Below the pieces are notes generated by a model. It was not told where the DNA came from. It made no database searches and worked only from the letters and a program-made list of their open reading frames with translations. A stretch of 64,000 nucleotides of DNA from Cellvibrionaceae bacterium (GTDB lineage Bacteria > Pseudomonadota > Gammaproteobacteria > Pseudomonadales > Cellvibrionaceae). Shown here piece after piece: positions 35,462 through 39,166 of this stretch. The DNA is taken from NCBI GenBank assembly GCA_050633365.1, contig JBOEGJ010000003.1, forward strand, positions 1,172 through 65,171. The letters are read 5' to 3'. The position numbers were made by a program, and so were the translations under genes. Numbering within the stretch: position 1 is the first letter of the stretch; each line of letters starts with the position of its first letter.

Positions 35462-36826
35462 CTATGAATTTTGAGGCGCGGCGGGTTTGCGTTTGCGCGG
35501 GGAGCGACGGCGTTTGCCTTGTCCTTTACCCTGTCCGAGCTTGGCGACCATGGCCTCACGCCCTTCGCTGTCTTGTTCCTGATAGCGCGTCCACCATTTG
35601 CCGAGGCCATTGAGGTTTTCTCCAGCCTCTTCTCGCATCAAGACAAAGTCGTAAGCGGCGCGAAAGCGTGGGTGCTCAAACAGTCTCTCGGCGCGTTTTC
35701 CTTGGCGGCGAGACAAGCGGTGTTGCAAGTCCCATATTTCACGCATGCTCTGTGTAAAGCGCTTGGGTATTGAGGTGGTTTGCAATTGCTGTGAGACGAT
35801 ATTCTGAGCCGCCTGCTGATGCGCCTGAACCGGTTGCATGCCTTCTTTCTGCAGCTTTTCTTGCTCTGCACAGACCGATGGCCACAGCATGGCTGCGTAA
35901 ATATAGGCTGGCGTGACACGCTGATTGTTCTTTATGCGTTTGTCTGTGTTGATCAGAGCTTGAGTAAACAGTGCCTGAGCGTAGGGAAGGTCATTCTTTA
36001 GGGCGCTGTCCGTTGCCGGCAAGATGTACTGTAAAAGGTCGTATTCGCGAAGCTTGGGTAACACGGCGCTGCCATAGCCGCCCATGAACAGCTTAAGTAC
36101 CTCTTCAAATAGGCGTGCCGCGGGGATATTGCGCAGGAGTGAGCCCAGTTTGTGAATGGGTGCTGCCGTGGCCTTGTCGATGTCGAAGTCCAATTTACCC
36201 GCGAAGCGCACCGCTCGCAGCATGCGCACAGGGTCTTCTTGGTATCGGGTTTCCGCCTTGCCGATAATACGAATTTTGCGATCAACGATGTCTTTAATTC
36301 CGCCGGTGAAATCGTGAACGCTAAATTGATCTAGGGTGTAGTAGAGAGCGTTGACGGTAAAGTCACGGCGGATGGCGTCGGATTGGATGTCGCCATAGAC
36401 GTTATCTCGAAGCAGCATGCCCTCATTGGACTTGGCGCTGTGCTTATTGCCAGCGTTGTCGCTATGGTTGTCGCGGAAGGTGGTTACTTCAATGATCTCT
36501 CGGCCAAAGCGAACGTGAACGATTTTAAAGCGGCGGCCAATAATGCGGGAGTTTCGAAATAGCTGCTTTACCTGCTCAGGAGTGGCATTGGTGGCAATGT
36601 CAAAGTCTTTGGGGCTATCGTCGAGCAGTAAGTCTCGAACGCCTCCACCCACCAAATAGGCCTCATAGCCACCGTCACCTAGGCGCTGCATCACTTTTAC
36701 TGCCGAGTGACTGATCTTGCGCCGAGAGATGTTGTGATCCTCACGCTCGATGATTTGATGTTTGATGGCCTGCGAGTTTTTCGTCAAGGCATTGATGATC
36801 GGTAGGTTAAGCAGCCGCTTCAACAT
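35462..36826 (-). CDS. pcnB: Poly(A) polymerase I
   Basis: LVGGGVRD, PKDFDIAT, IIGRRFKIVHV, RRDFTVNAL, EDPVRMLRA, HPRFRAAYDF. Confidence 0.97.
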   Translation of the reverse strand: MLKRLLNLPIINALTKNSQAIKHQIIEREDHNISRRKISHSAVKVMQRLGDGGYEAYLVGGGVRDLLLDDSPKDFDIATNATPEQVKQLFRNSRIIGRRFKIVHVRFGREIIEVTTFRDNHSDNAGNKHSAKSNEGMLLRDNVYGDIQSDAIRRDFTVNALYYTLDQFSVHDFTGGIKDIVDRKIRIIGKAETRYQEDPVRMLRAVRFAGKLDFDIDKATAAPIHKLGSLLRNIPAARLFEEVLKLFMGGYGSAVLPKLREYDLLQYILPATDSALKNDLPYAQALFTQALINTDKRIKNNQRVTPAYIYAAMLWPSVCAEQEKLQKEGMQPVQAHQQAAQNIVSQQLQTTSIPKRFTQSMREIWDLQHRLSRRQGKRAERLFEHPRFRAAYDFVLMREEAGENLNGLGKWWTRYQEQDSEGREAMVAKLGQGKGQGKRRRSPRKRKPAAPQNS

Positions 36827-36985
36827 GGTCAGAACTACTGAAATGATGGCCTCGGGGGTGCCGGGCGAGTGATAGATGGTCGCTGTTTGCGTGTCTAGCA
36901 GGCAGCGCGATGTAATGGAGGCGCAGTGTACCATGCAGAGGGCAGAATGCCAGTTGTGGGCAGAAGGCGAGAATATGACTGGTCT

Positions 36986-37019
36986 AGAAATGAAAACGGG
37001 AAAGCCTTAGCTTTCCCGT
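36986..37019 (-). terminator. Rho-independent terminator of the CrcZ-like RNA
   Basis: Perfect 10-bp stem ACGGGAAAGC/GCTTTCCCGT (36996-37019) with 4-nt loop, followed on the minus strand by TTTCATTT. Confidence 0.85.
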
Positions 37020-37283
37020 AGAATTTTTTCTTATTGTCCTAGTTTTATTGTGCCGCAAAAGTATTGGCTTCCTTGCTTTGCGGTAATTTGCTCTGTGGCA
37101 AATCCTCTCCAAGTTTTTAGTCAGTTGTAACAGTCAGTTTTAACGCTTTGTTATTATTGTTTTTTGTTGTTATTAGTTTTATCTATCTTTTTATTATTAT
37201 TTGTTGTTTTTATTATTCAGTTTTACTTTTTTATTATTATTTATTGTTGTTATTTTTATAGTTGTAATTTGTTTTTATTATGC
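36988..37283 (-). ncRNA. crcZ: CrcZ-like Hfq/Crc-sequestering sRNA (about 295 nt)
   Basis: Lies between cbrB and pcnB, bounded by a sigma54 promoter and a terminator, has no ORF and is packed with AANAANAA runs; starts GCATAATAAAAACAA. Confidence 0.85.
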
Positions 37284-37293
37284 TGACCTACAA

Positions 37294-37310
37294 AGCATTC
37301 TGCGTGCCAA
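37294..37310 (-). promoter_or_regulatory. sigma54 (RpoN) -24/-12 promoter
   Basis: Minus strand TTGGCACGCAGAATGCT: GG-N10-GC spacing, near-consensus. Confidence 0.88.
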
Positions 37311-37328
37311 CTTTGAAAACTTGTTATT

Positions 37329-37341
37329 AATCAATGGTTTG
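37329..37341 (+). promoter_or_regulatory. IHF binding site
   Basis: AATCAATGGTTTG is an exact match to WATCAANNNNTTR, located between the enhancer and the sigma54 promoter. Confidence 0.7.
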
Positions 37342-37384
37342 GGATTATTTGGTTCACTCCTTATTTGAATTTGTTATTACTACT

Positions 37385-37481
37385 CGTTACCTATTATCTC
37401 GAAAACTGTTACGAACCTATAACCTTGGTAACACTTCCTTACACTGTTTCCGATGGTGGTATCAGATTGTTACGGTGTTAC
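37385..37481. promoter_or_regulatory. Cluster of TGTTAC/GTAACA half-sites (putative CbrB enhancer)
   Basis: CGTTAC 37385, TGTTAC 37407, GTAACA 37428, TGTTAC 37468, TGTTAC 37476. Confidence 0.7.
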
Positions 37482-37690
37482 CGGGTAGGGGGCGCTAGGT
37501 GCGGGTCAGTAGCGGAGAGGCGAGTGTTTAGAGTCGAGGTTAATTGACTCTAAAGAGCACAGGTTTTGAGAGTTGATGTATAGCGGCTTTAAAAGAGGGT
37601 TCGTGTTTGAGGGAGGTGTGGGCTGGGCGGCAGGGCTTGTCTCAGTGCCACTGATTCGTGGCACTCTTACTTGTTTTTGTTCGAAACGGG

Positions 37691-39109
37691 CTATTTGGCG
37701 CCCGCTGCGGTCTTCTTGCGAGGGATCCCCAGTCGCTGGCGTCGCTCCCATAGACACTTGCGGCTCACGCCAAGCTTTCTGGCTAGCTCGGTTTCGCTCA
37801 TGGTGTCTTGATGCTCTAGCACGAAGCGTTGGAAGTAATCTTCCAGCGATAGGTCTTCGTTGGGTTCGGGGGGCATGGCGGTTGTCGATGTGTTGCTCGA
37901 GCTGTGGGCCAAATGAACCTGTTGAATGATTTCATCTGAGCTGTCGCTGATTTGTACCAAGTCCAAATCGATGGCCAGTAGATCGTGGCTGATCTCCTTT
38001 TCATCCTCACAGAGAATTACCGCCCGTTGCATGGCATTTTCGAGTTCGCGAACGTTACCAGGCCAAGTATAGGTTGTTACCGCCTGTACAGATTCTGGTG
38101 AGAGTACCAGTGTGGGTTTGTTCATTTGCTCACAGAAGCGCTGCAATAAGCTCTCTGCCAAGCTGATGATATCTTTGCCTCGGTCTCTCAGGGGCGGAAG
38201 GGTCAGTTGGACTACATTAATCCGGTAGTACAAATCTTCTCGAAATTTGCCCTCTTGGCATAGTTTTCTTAAATCTCTGTGGGTCGCCGCAACTAGGCGC
38301 ACATTGACCTTGCGGGACTCAGTTGCGCCGATGGGGCGAACTTCACCTTCTTGCAGAACCCGTAACAATCGGGCTTGTGCTTCGAGCGGTAACTCTCCGA
38401 TTTCATCCAAGAATAGAGTGCCACCATCGGCGGCGGCGACAAGGCCTTCACTCTTGGCCGCAGCGCCAGTAAAGGCACCTTTTTCGTGACCAAATAATTC
38501 TGATTCGATCAGTGTTTCTGGGATAGCGGCGCAGTTCACGGAGATCATCGCCTGGTTGTTGCGCGGGCTTTCTGAGTGGATGGCTTTAGCGACCAACTCT
38601 TTACCGGTTCCGGTTTCGCCGTGAACCAAGACTGTCGCAGGGGTAGGTGCGACTTTGTGAATTCTATTATAGAGCGTCTTCATTACCGGGCTGGTGCCGA
38701 TCATGCCGGGTATTTGATGGCTAGAGGTCTTGCTCGGTTTCTTCTGACGTGCGGCGTCAGTGGCCTTGCCGATGACGCGTTTTACCGCAGTGACCATTTC
38801 GTCATGATCAAAGGGTTTGGCGATGTAATCGACAGCACCCAGGCGCATGGAGTCCACCGCTGAGCGCAAGCTGGCGTAGCTGGTCATGATCAATACCGGA
38901 ACTTCTCCGGCGGCTTTGATCATGTCAGTGCCAGGGGCGCCAGGTAGGCGAAGATCGCTGATGATTAAGTCGTAACGGGTCAAGTCGTGACGAGTTGTCG
39001 CCTCTTTTACCGACGCAGCCTCGCTCACCGTGTACTTATTGCGCTCTAGTAGCTTGCGCAGTGCAGTACGGATAATGACTTCATCTTCAACTACTAGGAT
39101 GTTACTCAT
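37691..39109 (-). CDS. cbrB: sigma54-dependent response regulator CbrB (REC-AAA+-HTH)
   Basis: SDLRLPG REC, GETGTGKE, GAFTGA, FLDEIGE, WPGNVREL; C-terminal ETELARKLGVSRKCLWERRQRLGIPR; directly downstream of the cbrA-like kinase. Confidence 0.9.
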   Translation of the reverse strand: MSNILVVEDEVIIRTALRKLLERNKYTVSEAASVKEATTRHDLTRYDLIISDLRLPGAPGTDMIKAAGEVPVLIMTSYASLRSAVDSMRLGAVDYIAKPFDHDEMVTAVKRVIGKATDAARQKKPSKTSSHQIPGMIGTSPVMKTLYNRIHKVAPTPATVLVHGETGTGKELVAKAIHSESPRNNQAMISVNCAAIPETLIESELFGHEKGAFTGAAAKSEGLVAAADGGTLFLDEIGELPLEAQARLLRVLQEGEVRPIGATESRKVNVRLVAATHRDLRKLCQEGKFREDLYYRINVVQLTLPPLRDRGKDIISLAESLLQRFCEQMNKPTLVLSPESVQAVTTYTWPGNVRELENAMQRAVILCEDEKEISHDLLAIDLDLVQISDSSDEIIQQVHLAHSSSNTSTTAMPPEPNEDLSLEDYFQRFVLEHQDTMSETELARKLGVSRKCLWERRQRLGIPRKKTAAGAK

Positions 39110-39166
39110 AGGCGCTTTGTTACCCAAGTTGTTACGAGAATGACCAGACAGGCGCCTAGTGTTACC

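What the first reader, a model, noticed from the sequence alone, without database searches (positions are those of the whole stretch)
36988..37283. Unannotated CrcZ-like sponge RNA with an extreme A-rich, nearly unstructured 5' half
Seen: an ORF-free minus-strand unit bounded by a sigma54 promoter (37310-37294) and a perfect 10-bp terminator (36996-37019). The first 143 nt (37283-37141) contain 95 A and only 7 G by my count, in long AAN-triplet runs such as AAAAATAACAACAATAA, AATAATAATAAAAAA and AATAACAACAAAAAACAATAATAACAA. The 3' half has hairpins (ATTTGC/GCAAAT, CCGCAAA/TTTGCGG). Established: in Pseudomonas, CrcZ lies between cbrB and pcnB, is sigma54/CbrB-driven, and titrates Hfq/Crc through AANAANAA motifs to relieve carbon catabolite repression. 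Inference: this is a divergent CrcZ in an apparently non-Pseudomonas host. Its motif density looks higher than the few discrete CA motifs of pseudomonad CrcZ, so it could load several Hfq hexamers and may be too divergent for standard models.
Basis: partly seen in the sequence, partly recalled or inferred. Interest (0 to 1): 0.85.

Follow-up and report, generated by a model that had tools for sequence, protein, structure and literature searches.

The report
Divergent CrcZ-type Hfq-sponge RNA
Between cbrB and pcnB, this Cellvibrionaceae genome carries a conserved non-coding RNA of about 295 nt that is a distant relative of the Pseudomonas Hfq "sponge" CrcZ, so this carbon-choice circuit reaches beyond the pseudomonads and here carries an extra hairpin of the CsrA-binding type.

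Summary
On the minus strand, 37283-36988 is bounded by a sigma54 box (37309-37294) and a perfect 10-bp terminator (37019-36996). Its first 143 nt have 95 A and 7 G, fold at 0 kcal/mol, and carry ARN triplet runs far beyond what the composition predicts.

The flanks are cbrA-cbrB and pcnB-folK. The genome also encodes Crc, Hfq, RpoN and CsrA. The host is a Cellvibrionaceae member; the nearest named relative is Gilvimarinus.

The same unit lies downstream of cbrB across the family, detected in 50 of 59 loci. It consists of a CbrB palindrome at -124, a sigma54 box, usually three long ARN blocks of about 28 nt, a conserved 3' core and a terminator.

Rfam CrcZ scores only 23 bits against a cut-off of 95. 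However, a core box, ACUGAYU-N-UUGGAGAGG followed by a UUGC hairpin, is shared with true Pseudomonas CrcZ. I read the RNA as a divergent CrcZ homologue that titrates Hfq/Crc.

Two features are new. The ARN tracts are much longer and packed at the 5' end. A family-specific hexaloop hairpin, RC[ANGGAN]GY, matches the CsrA/RsmE consensus.

The parts
37407..37433 (-). CbrB-type enhancer palindrome TGTTAC-N15-GTAACA, 124 nt upstream of the sigma54 box
   Evidence: The same palindrome (N14-16) sits at -123/-124 in 44 of 52 family loci. Half-site density is 2.5 per 220 nt against a background of 0.18. TGTTAC and GTAACA are the CbrB subsites defined in P. putida (PMC6296734).
37468..37481 (-). Two further GTAACA half-sites; an additional GTAACG half-site lies at 37385-37390
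37329..37341 (-). IHF-like site (matches WATCAANNNNTTR) between the enhancer and the promoter
   Evidence: A match to this pattern is present in only 16 of 52 family loci, so this part is weaker.
37294..37309 (-). Sigma54 promoter TGGCAC-N5-ATGCT (GG-N10-GC)
   Evidence: It is the only one of 29 such boxes in the genome that is followed by A-rich sequence. A box is present in nearly all family loci. No sigma70-like promoter was found in 36700-37800.
36988..37283 (-). Predicted RNA of about 295 nt. The +1 is inferred about 12 nt after the -12 GC; the 3' end lies in the U-tract.
   Evidence: The start is inferred, not mapped.
37147..37279 (-). Unstructured ARN domain with four blocks: 37279-37268 (12 nt), 37257-37222 (36 nt), 37217-37187 (31 nt) and 37174-37147 (28 nt). 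It forms a module of about 41-43 nt repeated roughly three times.
   Evidence: The family consensus for the 28-nt block is AAUAANAACAAYAAAUAAUAANAANAAN.
37119..37138 (-). Two ACUGACU boxes. The box is duplicated by a 13-nt direct repeat in this genus; one copy is usual in the family.
37104..37112 (-). UUGGAGAGG box, shared with Pseudomonas CrcZ
37085..37104 (-). Hairpin 1: GAUUUGC-CACAGA-GCAAAUU
   Evidence: 81% of cells are paired across 23 sequences; the pairs are mostly invariant.
37053..37083 (-). Hairpin 2: CCGCAAA...UUUGCGG enclosing GC[AAGGAA]GC (37076-37067), a GGA hexaloop
   Evidence: RCANGGANGY occurs in 33 of 47 family RNAs against 0.5 expected. The closing pair covaries: G-C in 13 sequences, A-U in 8.
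37023..37035 (-). Short 3' ARN block AAUAAGAAAAAAU just before the terminator
36996..37019 (-). Intrinsic terminator with a 10-bp stem and 4-nt loop; U-tract 36995-36988
   Evidence: It is conserved family-wide as ACGGGAAAGC..GCUUUCCCGU-UUUGCUUU, with changes on both sides at 4 of 10 pairs.
37691..39127 (-). cbrB, an NtrC-family sigma54 activator (478 aa)
   Evidence: It is 62% identical to Pseudomonas CbrB.
35462..36934 (-). pcnB, poly(A) polymerase. The true start is probably near 36826.
   Evidence: TIGR01942, 534 bits; for the start.

Best explanation
This is the Cellvibrionaceae version of CrcZ, a non-coding RNA of about 295 nt.

Proposed mechanism (inferred): when CbrA/CbrB is active on poor carbon sources, CbrB binds the TGTTAC-N15-GTAACA enhancer at -124 and activates sigma54 RNA polymerase at 37309-37294. 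Transcription runs from about 37283 to the terminator at 37019-36996.

The first 140 nt or so are single-stranded and made of long ARN-triplet tracts (36, 31 and 28 nt, plus one of 12 nt). These tracts load the distal face of several Hfq hexamers, together with Crc. That draws Hfq/Crc off the ARN-containing ribosome-binding sites of catabolic mRNAs and lifts catabolite repression.

The structured 3' domain has the ACUGACU and UUGGAGAGG boxes, two hairpins, a short ARN block and the terminator with its U-tail. It probably gives stability and offers a second protein-binding platform.

Shown here: the anatomy, its conservation, the synteny, the presence of all partner genes, and sequence kinship to Pseudomonas CrcZ. 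Inferred: transcription, the start site, Hfq/Crc binding and the physiological role.
For: 1. Synteny: cbrA-cbrB-[RNA]-pcnB-folK-panB. CbrA is 51% identical to Pseudomonas CbrA over 990 aa.

2. Promoter layout: identical to the published crcZ/crcY layout of CbrB F/R subsites, IHF and GG-N10-GC.

3. ARN tracts: they exceed composition (0 of 5000 shuffles) and the domain folds at 0 kcal/mol.

4. Family-wide conservation:
- CbrB is present in 80 of 81 genomes.
- Crc is present in 79 of 81 genomes.
- The RNA core is detected by my covariance model in 50 of 59 loci downstream of cbrB.
- It occurs once per genome.

5. Kinship to CrcZ:
- Rfam CrcZ is the best family for the window (E 6.7e-4) and for 9 of the 18 family loci searched.
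- The box ACUGAYU-N3-12-UUGGAGAGG followed by a UUGC...GCAA hairpin occurs in three Pseudomonas/Phytopseudomonas CrcZ RNAs.
- In the order sample all 10 exact matches next to cbrB fall in three families. The 7 matches elsewhere equal the control rate of 8.

6. Partner proteins:
- Hfq keeps the distal-face motif SIYLVNGIKLQG.
- The Crc candidate's best solved relative is P. aeruginosa Crc (E 1.4e-74, 48% identity).
- Two RpoN-type genes are present.

7. Precedent: the first 151 nt of P. aeruginosa CrcZ, with 3 A-rich stretches, bind three Hfq hexamers through the distal face (PMC4063720).
Against: - There is no expression evidence.
- The Rfam CrcZ score is far below the gathering cut-off (23 against 95 bits).
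- My family model finds Pseudomonas CrcZ only at 14 bits (E about 0.7), so homology rests on synteny plus a short shared box.
- No Hfq/Crc target mRNAs were identified in this genome. The other ARN clusters I inspected were mostly lysine-rich coding sequence.
Confidence: 0.8

Rival explanations
1. Dual hub. Besides soaking up Hfq/Crc through its 5' domain, the RNA binds a CsrA dimer through the conserved RC[ANGGAN]GY hairpin and the UUGGAGAGG box 33-41 nt upstream. This would couple the CbrAB-Crc network to the Csr/Rsm network. CsrA might control the RNA's stability, or the RNA might titrate some CsrA.
For: - Motif enrichment: RCANGGANGY occurs in 33 of 47 family RNAs against 0.5 expected, at a fixed 66-100 nt from the 3' end, and about 7 more RNAs have near variants.
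- Conservation pattern: CA, GGA and G are invariant while the closing pair covaries (G-C 13, A-U 8).
- Match to CsrA: the motif fits the SELEX consensus RUACARGGAUGU, with GGA in a hairpin loop (PMC4347634).
- Spacing: the distance to the upstream GGAG is 33-41 nt in 26 of 31 RNAs.
- Partner genes: the genome has three CsrA-family genes.
- Precedent: joint Hfq and RsmA action on one RNA has been reported in P. aeruginosa (PMC7705225, title listed).
Against: - There are only one or two GGA sites per RNA, against many in true Csr sponges.
- Minimum-free-energy folds leave the GGA unpaired in only 18 of 33 RNAs.
- The hairpin is absent from Pseudomonas CrcZ and from the other 30 or so families sampled.
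- A separate GGA-rich candidate sponge exists elsewhere in the genome.
- There are no binding data.
Confidence: 0.3
2. The RNA acts mainly as a base-pairing sRNA. The conserved single-stranded boxes (AAACUGACU, UUGGAGAGG) would be seeds for trans targets, and the A-rich part would only recruit Hfq.
For: The two boxes are the best-conserved unpaired sequence. An Hfq-binding module plus a terminator U-tail is the usual make-up of an sRNA.
Against: - Three to six long ARN blocks are far more than are needed to recruit one Hfq hexamer.
- The same boxes occur in Pseudomonas CrcZ, which is known as a protein sponge.
- No target search was done.
Confidence: 0.1
3. The unit is a regulatory leader of pcnB. 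Sigma54-driven transcription would read through the terminator to set poly(A) polymerase levels, and the A-rich RNA would have no sponge role.
For: The RNA-pcnB adjacency is conserved across the order. Only about 60-160 nt separate the terminator from pcnB.
Against: - The terminator is a perfect 10-bp G+C-rich stem with a U-tract, and it is the most conserved part of the RNA.
- The same arrangement in Pseudomonas yields an independent RNA.
- This reading does not explain the ARN periodicity.
Confidence: 0.05
4. The element is not an RNA at all. It would be an AT-rich DNA element such as curved DNA, an unwinding element or a leftover repeat.
For: The sequence is of low complexity and contains a tandem module of about 41 nt.
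Against: - Strand asymmetry is strong (95 A against 26 T).
- Triplet phasing is present.
- A promoter and a terminator are conserved on the same strand, with compensatory changes in the stems.
Confidence: 0.02

Closest known systems
CrcZ of Pseudomonas and Azotobacter (Rfam RF01675; 407 nt in P. aeruginosa)
   Same: - Lies between cbrB and pcnB.
- Has a sigma54 promoter with TGTTAC/GTAACA CbrB subsites.
- Begins directly with an ARN tract and has several ARN tracts.
- Shares the ACUGAYU-N-UUGGAGAGG box followed by a UUGC...GCAA hairpin after the first group of ARN tracts.
- Ends in a G-rich terminator.
- The host encodes Hfq and Crc.
   Different: - Scores 23 bits against the cut-off of 95, where Pseudomonas controls score 234-350 bits.
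- Is about 295 nt rather than about 400 nt.
- Has A 53% against 33%.
- Has ARN blocks of 28-36 nt packed into an unstructured 5' 140 nt, instead of six blocks of 12-15 nt spread between hairpins.
- Has an added GGA hexaloop hairpin that is absent from Pseudomonas.
CrcY and CrcX, the paralogous sponges of P. putida, P. fluorescens, P. syringae and A. vinelandii
   Same: They have the same promoter logic and the same ARN-motif sponge design (PMC8871633).
   Different: They lie at other loci as extra copies. This genome has a single copy. Some family members, such as the MAG locus L008, appear to have a tandem second unit.
CsrB/RsmY/RsmZ-type CsrA sponges
   Same: One hairpin presents ANGGAN in a loop closed by C-G, which is the preferred CsrA/RsmE site.
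   Different: There are only one or two GGA sites rather than 5-20. The promoter is sigma54/CbrB-type; a GacA-type promoter was not searched for.
CrcZ-like RNAs noted by other agents of this scan in Pseudohongiellaceae, Halieaceae, Halomonadaceae and others
   Same: They occupy the same locus between cbrB and pcnB, and have a sigma54 box, ARN tracts and a score below the Rfam cut-off. My own survey found a sigma54 box followed by ARN blocks downstream of cbrB in 30 of 39 sampled families of the order.
   Different: By their descriptions, those RNAs are mostly miniature or differently built. The Cellvibrionaceae form has the longest ARN blocks, its own 3' core and the GGA hairpin. My model of that core does not detect the other families.

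Membership tests
CrcZ (RF01675) / CrcZ-type Hfq-Crc sponge | Located directly downstream of cbrB and upstream of pcnB | tested here: met
   The same arrangement holds in Gilvimarinus.
CrcZ (RF01675) / CrcZ-type Hfq-Crc sponge | Sigma54 promoter with upstream CbrB subsites (TGTTAC/GTAACA) and an IHF site | tested here: met
   The IHF-like match is present here but in only 16 of 52 relatives.
CrcZ (RF01675) / CrcZ-type Hfq-Crc sponge | Several A-rich ARN (AANAANAA) tracts in single-stranded context | tested here: met
   25 overlapping AANAANAA matches, four blocks in a 5' domain that folds at 0 kcal/mol, and one further block before the terminator.
CrcZ (RF01675) / CrcZ-type Hfq-Crc sponge | Score at or above Rfam's gathering cut-off (95 bits) | tested here: not met
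   23.1 bits, E 6.7e-4. Family members score 20-48 bits; Pseudomonas controls score 234 and 350 bits.
CrcZ (RF01675) / CrcZ-type Hfq-Crc sponge | Sequence kinship to bona fide CrcZ beyond composition | tested here: met
   The shared box ACUGAYU-N3-12-UUGGAGAGG plus the UUGC hairpin. 10 of 10 exact hits next to cbrB fall in three families, and the hits elsewhere equal the control rate. The box is short, so this is good but not overwhelming evidence.
CrcZ (RF01675) / CrcZ-type Hfq-Crc sponge | Host encodes Hfq with an intact distal face, and Crc | tested here: met
   Crc is present in 79 of 81 family genomes.
CrcZ (RF01675) / CrcZ-type Hfq-Crc sponge | Transcript made in a CbrB- and RpoN-dependent way and induced on non-preferred carbon sources | not testable with these tools
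rpoN is present.
CrcZ (RF01675) / CrcZ-type Hfq-Crc sponge | Binds and titrates Hfq (with Crc) and relieves repression of catabolic mRNAs | not testable with these tools
   This needs gel shifts, co-immunoprecipitation and genetics.
CsrB/RsmZ-type CsrA sponge | Many GGA motifs, mostly in hairpin loops | tested here: not met
   There is one conserved GGA hexaloop plus one single-stranded GGAG.
CsrA-bound RNA (any) | A site matching RUACARGGAUGU / ANGGAN in a loop closed by C-G | tested here: met
   GC[AAGGAA]GC lies at 37076-37067. The family motif is RCANGGANGY with a covarying closing pair. Predicted folds expose the GGA in 18 of 33 RNAs.

The most novel reading that the evidence does not exclude
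The Cellvibrionaceae CrcZ is a two-protein hub. Its 5' ARN domain would sequester several Hfq/Crc assemblies, while its family-specific 3' GGA hexaloop, together with the UUGGAGAGG box 33-41 nt upstream, would bind a CsrA dimer. One CbrB-driven RNA would then physically link the two great post-transcriptional carbon networks, Hfq/Crc and Csr/Rsm, in polysaccharide-degrading bacteria.
Probability: 0.25. Interest if true: 0.75.

Novelty: new variant of a known kind. Interest (0 to 1): 0.55.

Why it matters
**Reach of the circuit.** Reviews describe CbrAB-CrcZ as unique to Pseudomonadaceae, known only from Pseudomonas and Azotobacter (PMC8871633, PMC6296734). This work finds the complete module (CbrA, CbrB, the RNA, Crc, Hfq) throughout Cellvibrionaceae. 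CbrB orthologues occur in 224 of 301 genomes of the order, mostly followed by a sigma54 box and ARN blocks. The circuit is therefore an order-wide device that standard RNA annotation misses.

**Relevance to polysaccharide degraders.** Cellvibrionaceae include well-studied plant- and algal-polysaccharide degraders such as Cellvibrio, Saccharophagus and Teredinibacter. I found no description of their carbon-preference control in the paper library. This RNA is a concrete handle on it.

**Natural test case.** The long, paired (ARN)5 blocks allow a test of how many Hfq/Crc assemblies one RNA can carry. The conserved CsrA-type hairpin gives a testable link between two global regulators.

Tried and rejected
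- **Rfam at gathering thresholds.** Nothing was found in the whole window. At relaxed thresholds only a sub-threshold CrcZ hit appeared, along with chance hits to sraA and BTnc060 driven by the terminator.
- **My covariance model R1.** It covers the 3' core in 134 positions, and helix 2 was entered one column off. It finds the family. It finds Pseudomonas CrcZ at only 14 bits. Outside the family it gave only weak hits, and the one inspected, in family f21, is the end of a chemoreceptor gene plus a terminator. The core as modelled is therefore family-specific, and homology to CrcZ had to be argued from the short shared box.
- **Second copy (CrcY/CrcX-like) in this genome.** None was found by BLAST, by ARN-density scan, by sigma54 box followed by A-rich sequence, or by the model.
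- **Coding potential.** Frames starting at or after the Shine-Dalgarno-like UUGGAGAGG box are 2-76 codons long and unrelated among relatives. Rejected.
- **Hfq/Crc targets.** The other ARN-dense spots of the genome were mostly Lys/Glu-rich coding sequence or simple repeats, so no target list could be made without gene calls.
- **GGA exposure.** Folding predictions were mixed, with the GGA unpaired in 18 of 33 RNAs.
- **Literature.** No paper in the library links CrcZ or CbrB to Cellvibrio, Saccharophagus, Teredinibacter, Gilvimarinus or Marinobacter. The library lacks most subscription journals.

Full report
**1. The observation**

Read on the minus strand, 37310-36988 contains three elements in order:
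- a sigma54 box, TGGCACgcagaATGCT (37309-37294);
- about 295 nt without any conserved reading frame;
- a perfect 10-bp terminator, ACGGGAAAGC-uaag-GCUUUCCCGU (37019-36996), followed by UUUUCAUUU.

This is the most A-rich stretch of the window and the most ARN-dense place in the 4.87-Mb genome. It is also the only one of 29 sigma54-type boxes in the genome that is followed by A-rich sequence.

The pattern is not mere A-richness:
- 102 nt lie in runs of four or more ARN triplets, against 39 expected from shuffles of the same letters. None of 5000 shuffles reached the observed value.
- The 5' half has a predicted folding energy of 0 kcal/mol.
- The whole RNA folds at -39.5 kcal/mol (z = -3.8), all of it in the 3' half.
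- Tandem Repeats Finder sees a module of 41-43 nt repeated about three times.

**2. Surroundings and host**

The gene upstream is an NtrC-family sigma54 activator. The gene before that is a 1013-aa histidine kinase, 51% identical over 990 residues to Pseudomonas CbrA, including the N-terminal transporter-like part. Downstream lie pcnB, folK, a kinase and panB.

The closest named CbrB is that of Gilvimarinus agarilyticus (77%), followed by Cellvibrionaceae MAGs. Pseudomonas CbrB is 62% identical.

Elsewhere the genome encodes:
- an 85-aa Hfq with the distal-face motif intact;
- a Crc-like protein whose best solved relative is P. aeruginosa Crc (E 1.4e-74, 48% identity);
- two RpoN-type genes;
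- three CsrA-family genes.

**3. Conservation in the family**

CbrB is present in 80 of 81 sampled family genomes, covering 49 of 50 genera. Crc is present in 79 of 81. I fetched about 1.7 kb downstream of cbrB from 60 of these genomes.

Nearly all show the same unit: a sigma54 box, ARN clusters starting about 30 nt later, and a strikingly conserved terminator, ACGGGAAAGC..GCUUUCCCGU-UUUGCUUU. RNA lengths are mostly 240-400 nt and the A fraction is 0.33-0.53. The window's RNA is 293 nt with A 0.53, so it is typical in size and at the top in A content.

The enhancer palindrome TGTTAC-N14-16-GTAACA sits at -123/-124 in 44 of 52 loci, and half-sites are 14-fold enriched upstream. These are the CbrB subsites defined experimentally in P. 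putida (PMC6296734).

**4. Anatomy of the RNA**

The 5' domain is built from long ARN blocks. The commonest block is 28 nt, with consensus AAUAANAACAAYAAAUAAUAANAANAAN. This amounts to two (ARN)5 runs overlapping by 2 nt. Of 47 family RNAs, 22 have exactly three blocks of 18 nt or more. The window has blocks of 36, 31 and 28 nt, plus one of 12 nt.

The 3' domain aligns well across 23 genera. It consists of, in order:
- the AAACUGACU box;
- the UUGGAGAGG box;
- hairpin 1 (UUUGC/GCAAA);
- hairpin 2;
- a short ARN block;
- the terminator.

Counting pairs on that alignment gives 91% paired cells, against 41-52% when partners are slid by 1-3 columns. Changes on both sides occur at four terminator pairs and at the closing pair of hairpin 2.

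A covariance model of this core finds full-length matches at E < 0.001 in 50 of the 59 family loci searched. It also finds the window and the loci L007 and L008. It matches once per genome.

**5. Relation to Pseudomonas CrcZ**

Rfam's CrcZ model scores the window at 23.1 bits against a cut-off of 95 (E 6.7e-4). It scores the nine family loci it hit at 20-48 bits, and two Pseudomonas controls at 350 and 234 bits. By the curated test, this RNA is therefore not a member.

Nevertheless three Pseudomonas/Phytopseudomonas CrcZ RNAs carry AACUGAUU-N5-UUGGAGAGG followed by a (G)UUGC...GCAA(C) hairpin, placed after their first three A-rich stretches. This is the same order as here.

I searched 301 genomes of the order for the exact pattern ACTGAYT-N3-12-TTGGAGAGG.
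- It matched 17 genomes.
- 10 matches lie within about 400 nt downstream of cbrB: this genome, four genomes of family f5, and five genomes of f25. Family f25 scores 334 bits with Rfam CrcZ, so it is taken here as Pseudomonadaceae.
- The 7 other matches equal the rate of the reversed-pattern control, which gave 8.

Together with identical synteny and promoter logic, I read this as common descent with strong divergence.

The differences are real:
- Pseudomonas CrcZ has six ARN blocks of 12-15 nt spread over about 390 nt, with A 33% and 20-21% of its nucleotides in ARN runs.
- This RNA has 41% of its nucleotides in ARN runs, with the long blocks packed into an unstructured 5' end.

**6. Wider distribution**

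CbrB orthologues (E <= 1e-130, 59-70% identity) occur in 224 of 301 genomes of the GTDB order, across most of its roughly 58 families.

I sampled one locus per family for 39 families. In 30 of them a sigma54 box followed by at least one ARN block of 12 nt or more lies downstream of cbrB. Of the 20 loci tested with Rfam, only one passes the CrcZ cut-off, and one more reaches 67 bits.

This contradicts the statement in reviews that the CbrAB-CrcZ arrangement is unique to Pseudomonadaceae (PMC8871633; PMC6296734). No paper in the library links CrcZ or CbrB to any Cellvibrionaceae genus.

Other agents of this scan reported CrcZ-like RNAs in several other families. I treat those notes as leads only. 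My own survey agrees with them.

**7. A family-specific extra: the GGA hexaloop**

Hairpin 2 presents the motif R-C-A-N-G-G-A-N-G-Y.
- It occurs in 33 of 47 family RNAs, where 0.5 would be expected. It always lies 66-100 nt from the 3' end, apart from two outliers.
- About 7 more RNAs have close variants.
- CA, GGA and G are invariant, and the outer pair covaries (G-C 13, A-U 8, G-U 1).
- It is absent from Pseudomonas CrcZ. Among the CrcZ-like regions of 32 other families it appears twice, which is chance level.

The motif matches the CsrA SELEX consensus RUACARGGAUGU, in which ACA and GGA are conserved and the GGA sits in a hairpin loop (PMC4347634). It also matches, from my own knowledge, the RsmE-hcnA consensus (A/U)CANGGANG(U/A).

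The UUGGAGAGG box lies 33-41 nt upstream in 26 of 31 RNAs. From my own knowledge of CsrA, a dimer can bridge that distance.

Minimum-free-energy folds expose the GGA in only 18 of 33 RNAs, and one or two sites do not make a Csr sponge. I therefore rate CsrA binding as a hypothesis at about 0.25-0.3.

**8. Mechanism and its status**

*Shown:* the sequence anatomy, its conservation and covariation, the synteny, the partner genes, and kinship with CrcZ.

*Inferred from the Pseudomonas system* (PMC4063720; PMC6422490, listed):
- CbrB and sigma54 drive transcription.
- The single-stranded ARN tracts occupy the distal face of Hfq hexamers. A hexamer has six pockets, about 18 nt.
- Crc joins the complex.
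- Hfq/Crc are thereby drawn away from catabolic mRNAs.

In P. aeruginosa the first 151 nt of CrcZ, with three A-rich stretches, gave three Hfq-shifted bands. Here about 140 nt carry three blocks, each longer than one hexamer's footprint, plus a short one. At least three to four hexamers per RNA is a reasonable expectation.

**9. Verdict**

It is a new, strongly divergent variant of a known kind of RNA rather than a new kind.

Its value lies in three things:
- it extends the Cbr/Crc circuit to Cellvibrionaceae and, by survey, to much of the order;
- it has an unusually dense ARN architecture;
- it has a conserved CsrA-type hairpin that suggests cross-talk worth testing.

Noticed in passing
own genome C3:97228-97361 (+), about 32 kb beyond the window's end: A GGA-rich stretch (CAAGGA, CACGGAUG, several AAGGA) ending in a terminator-like hairpin with GCAGGAUGC in its loop. 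It is a candidate CsrB/RsmY-type CsrA sponge RNA.
   Followed up: no
L008:5040-5230 (Cellvibrionaceae MAG); L125 (two sigma54 boxes at 468 and 882): A second sigma54-like box with further ARN blocks lies directly after the first unit's terminator. Some genera therefore seem to have tandem CrcZ/CrcY-like duplicates.
   Followed up: partly
window 37119-37144 (-): A 13-nt direct repeat, GTTACAACTGACT x2, duplicates the ACUGACU box and places a TGTTAC half-site inside the RNA. It is seen only in this genus (window, L087, L088).
   Followed up: partly
window 36824-36934 (-): The longest pcnB frame starts at 36934, but the PcnB family models align only from residue 48-61. ATGTTGAAGCGG at 36826 resembles the Gilvimarinus start MLKRLFK, so the true start is probably about 36 codons further in.
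   Followed up: no
order-wide: CbrB orthologues occur in 224 of 301 genomes of the GTDB order. A sigma54 box plus ARN blocks lies downstream of cbrB in 30 of 39 sampled families, and only one of the 20 loci tested reaches Rfam's CrcZ cut-off.
   Followed up: partly
own genome C33:13751-13859: A (GGGAAATA)n microsatellite-like array lies next to a gene end. It surfaced in the GGA scan and is probably unrelated.
   Followed up: no
L170 (family f35), about 600 nt downstream of cbrB: The CrcZ-like RNA of another family shares a GGGAAAG..CUUUCCC terminator and a UGGAGAG box with the Cellvibrionaceae form (model hit of 35 bits). This hints at intermediate forms between families.
   Followed up: partly
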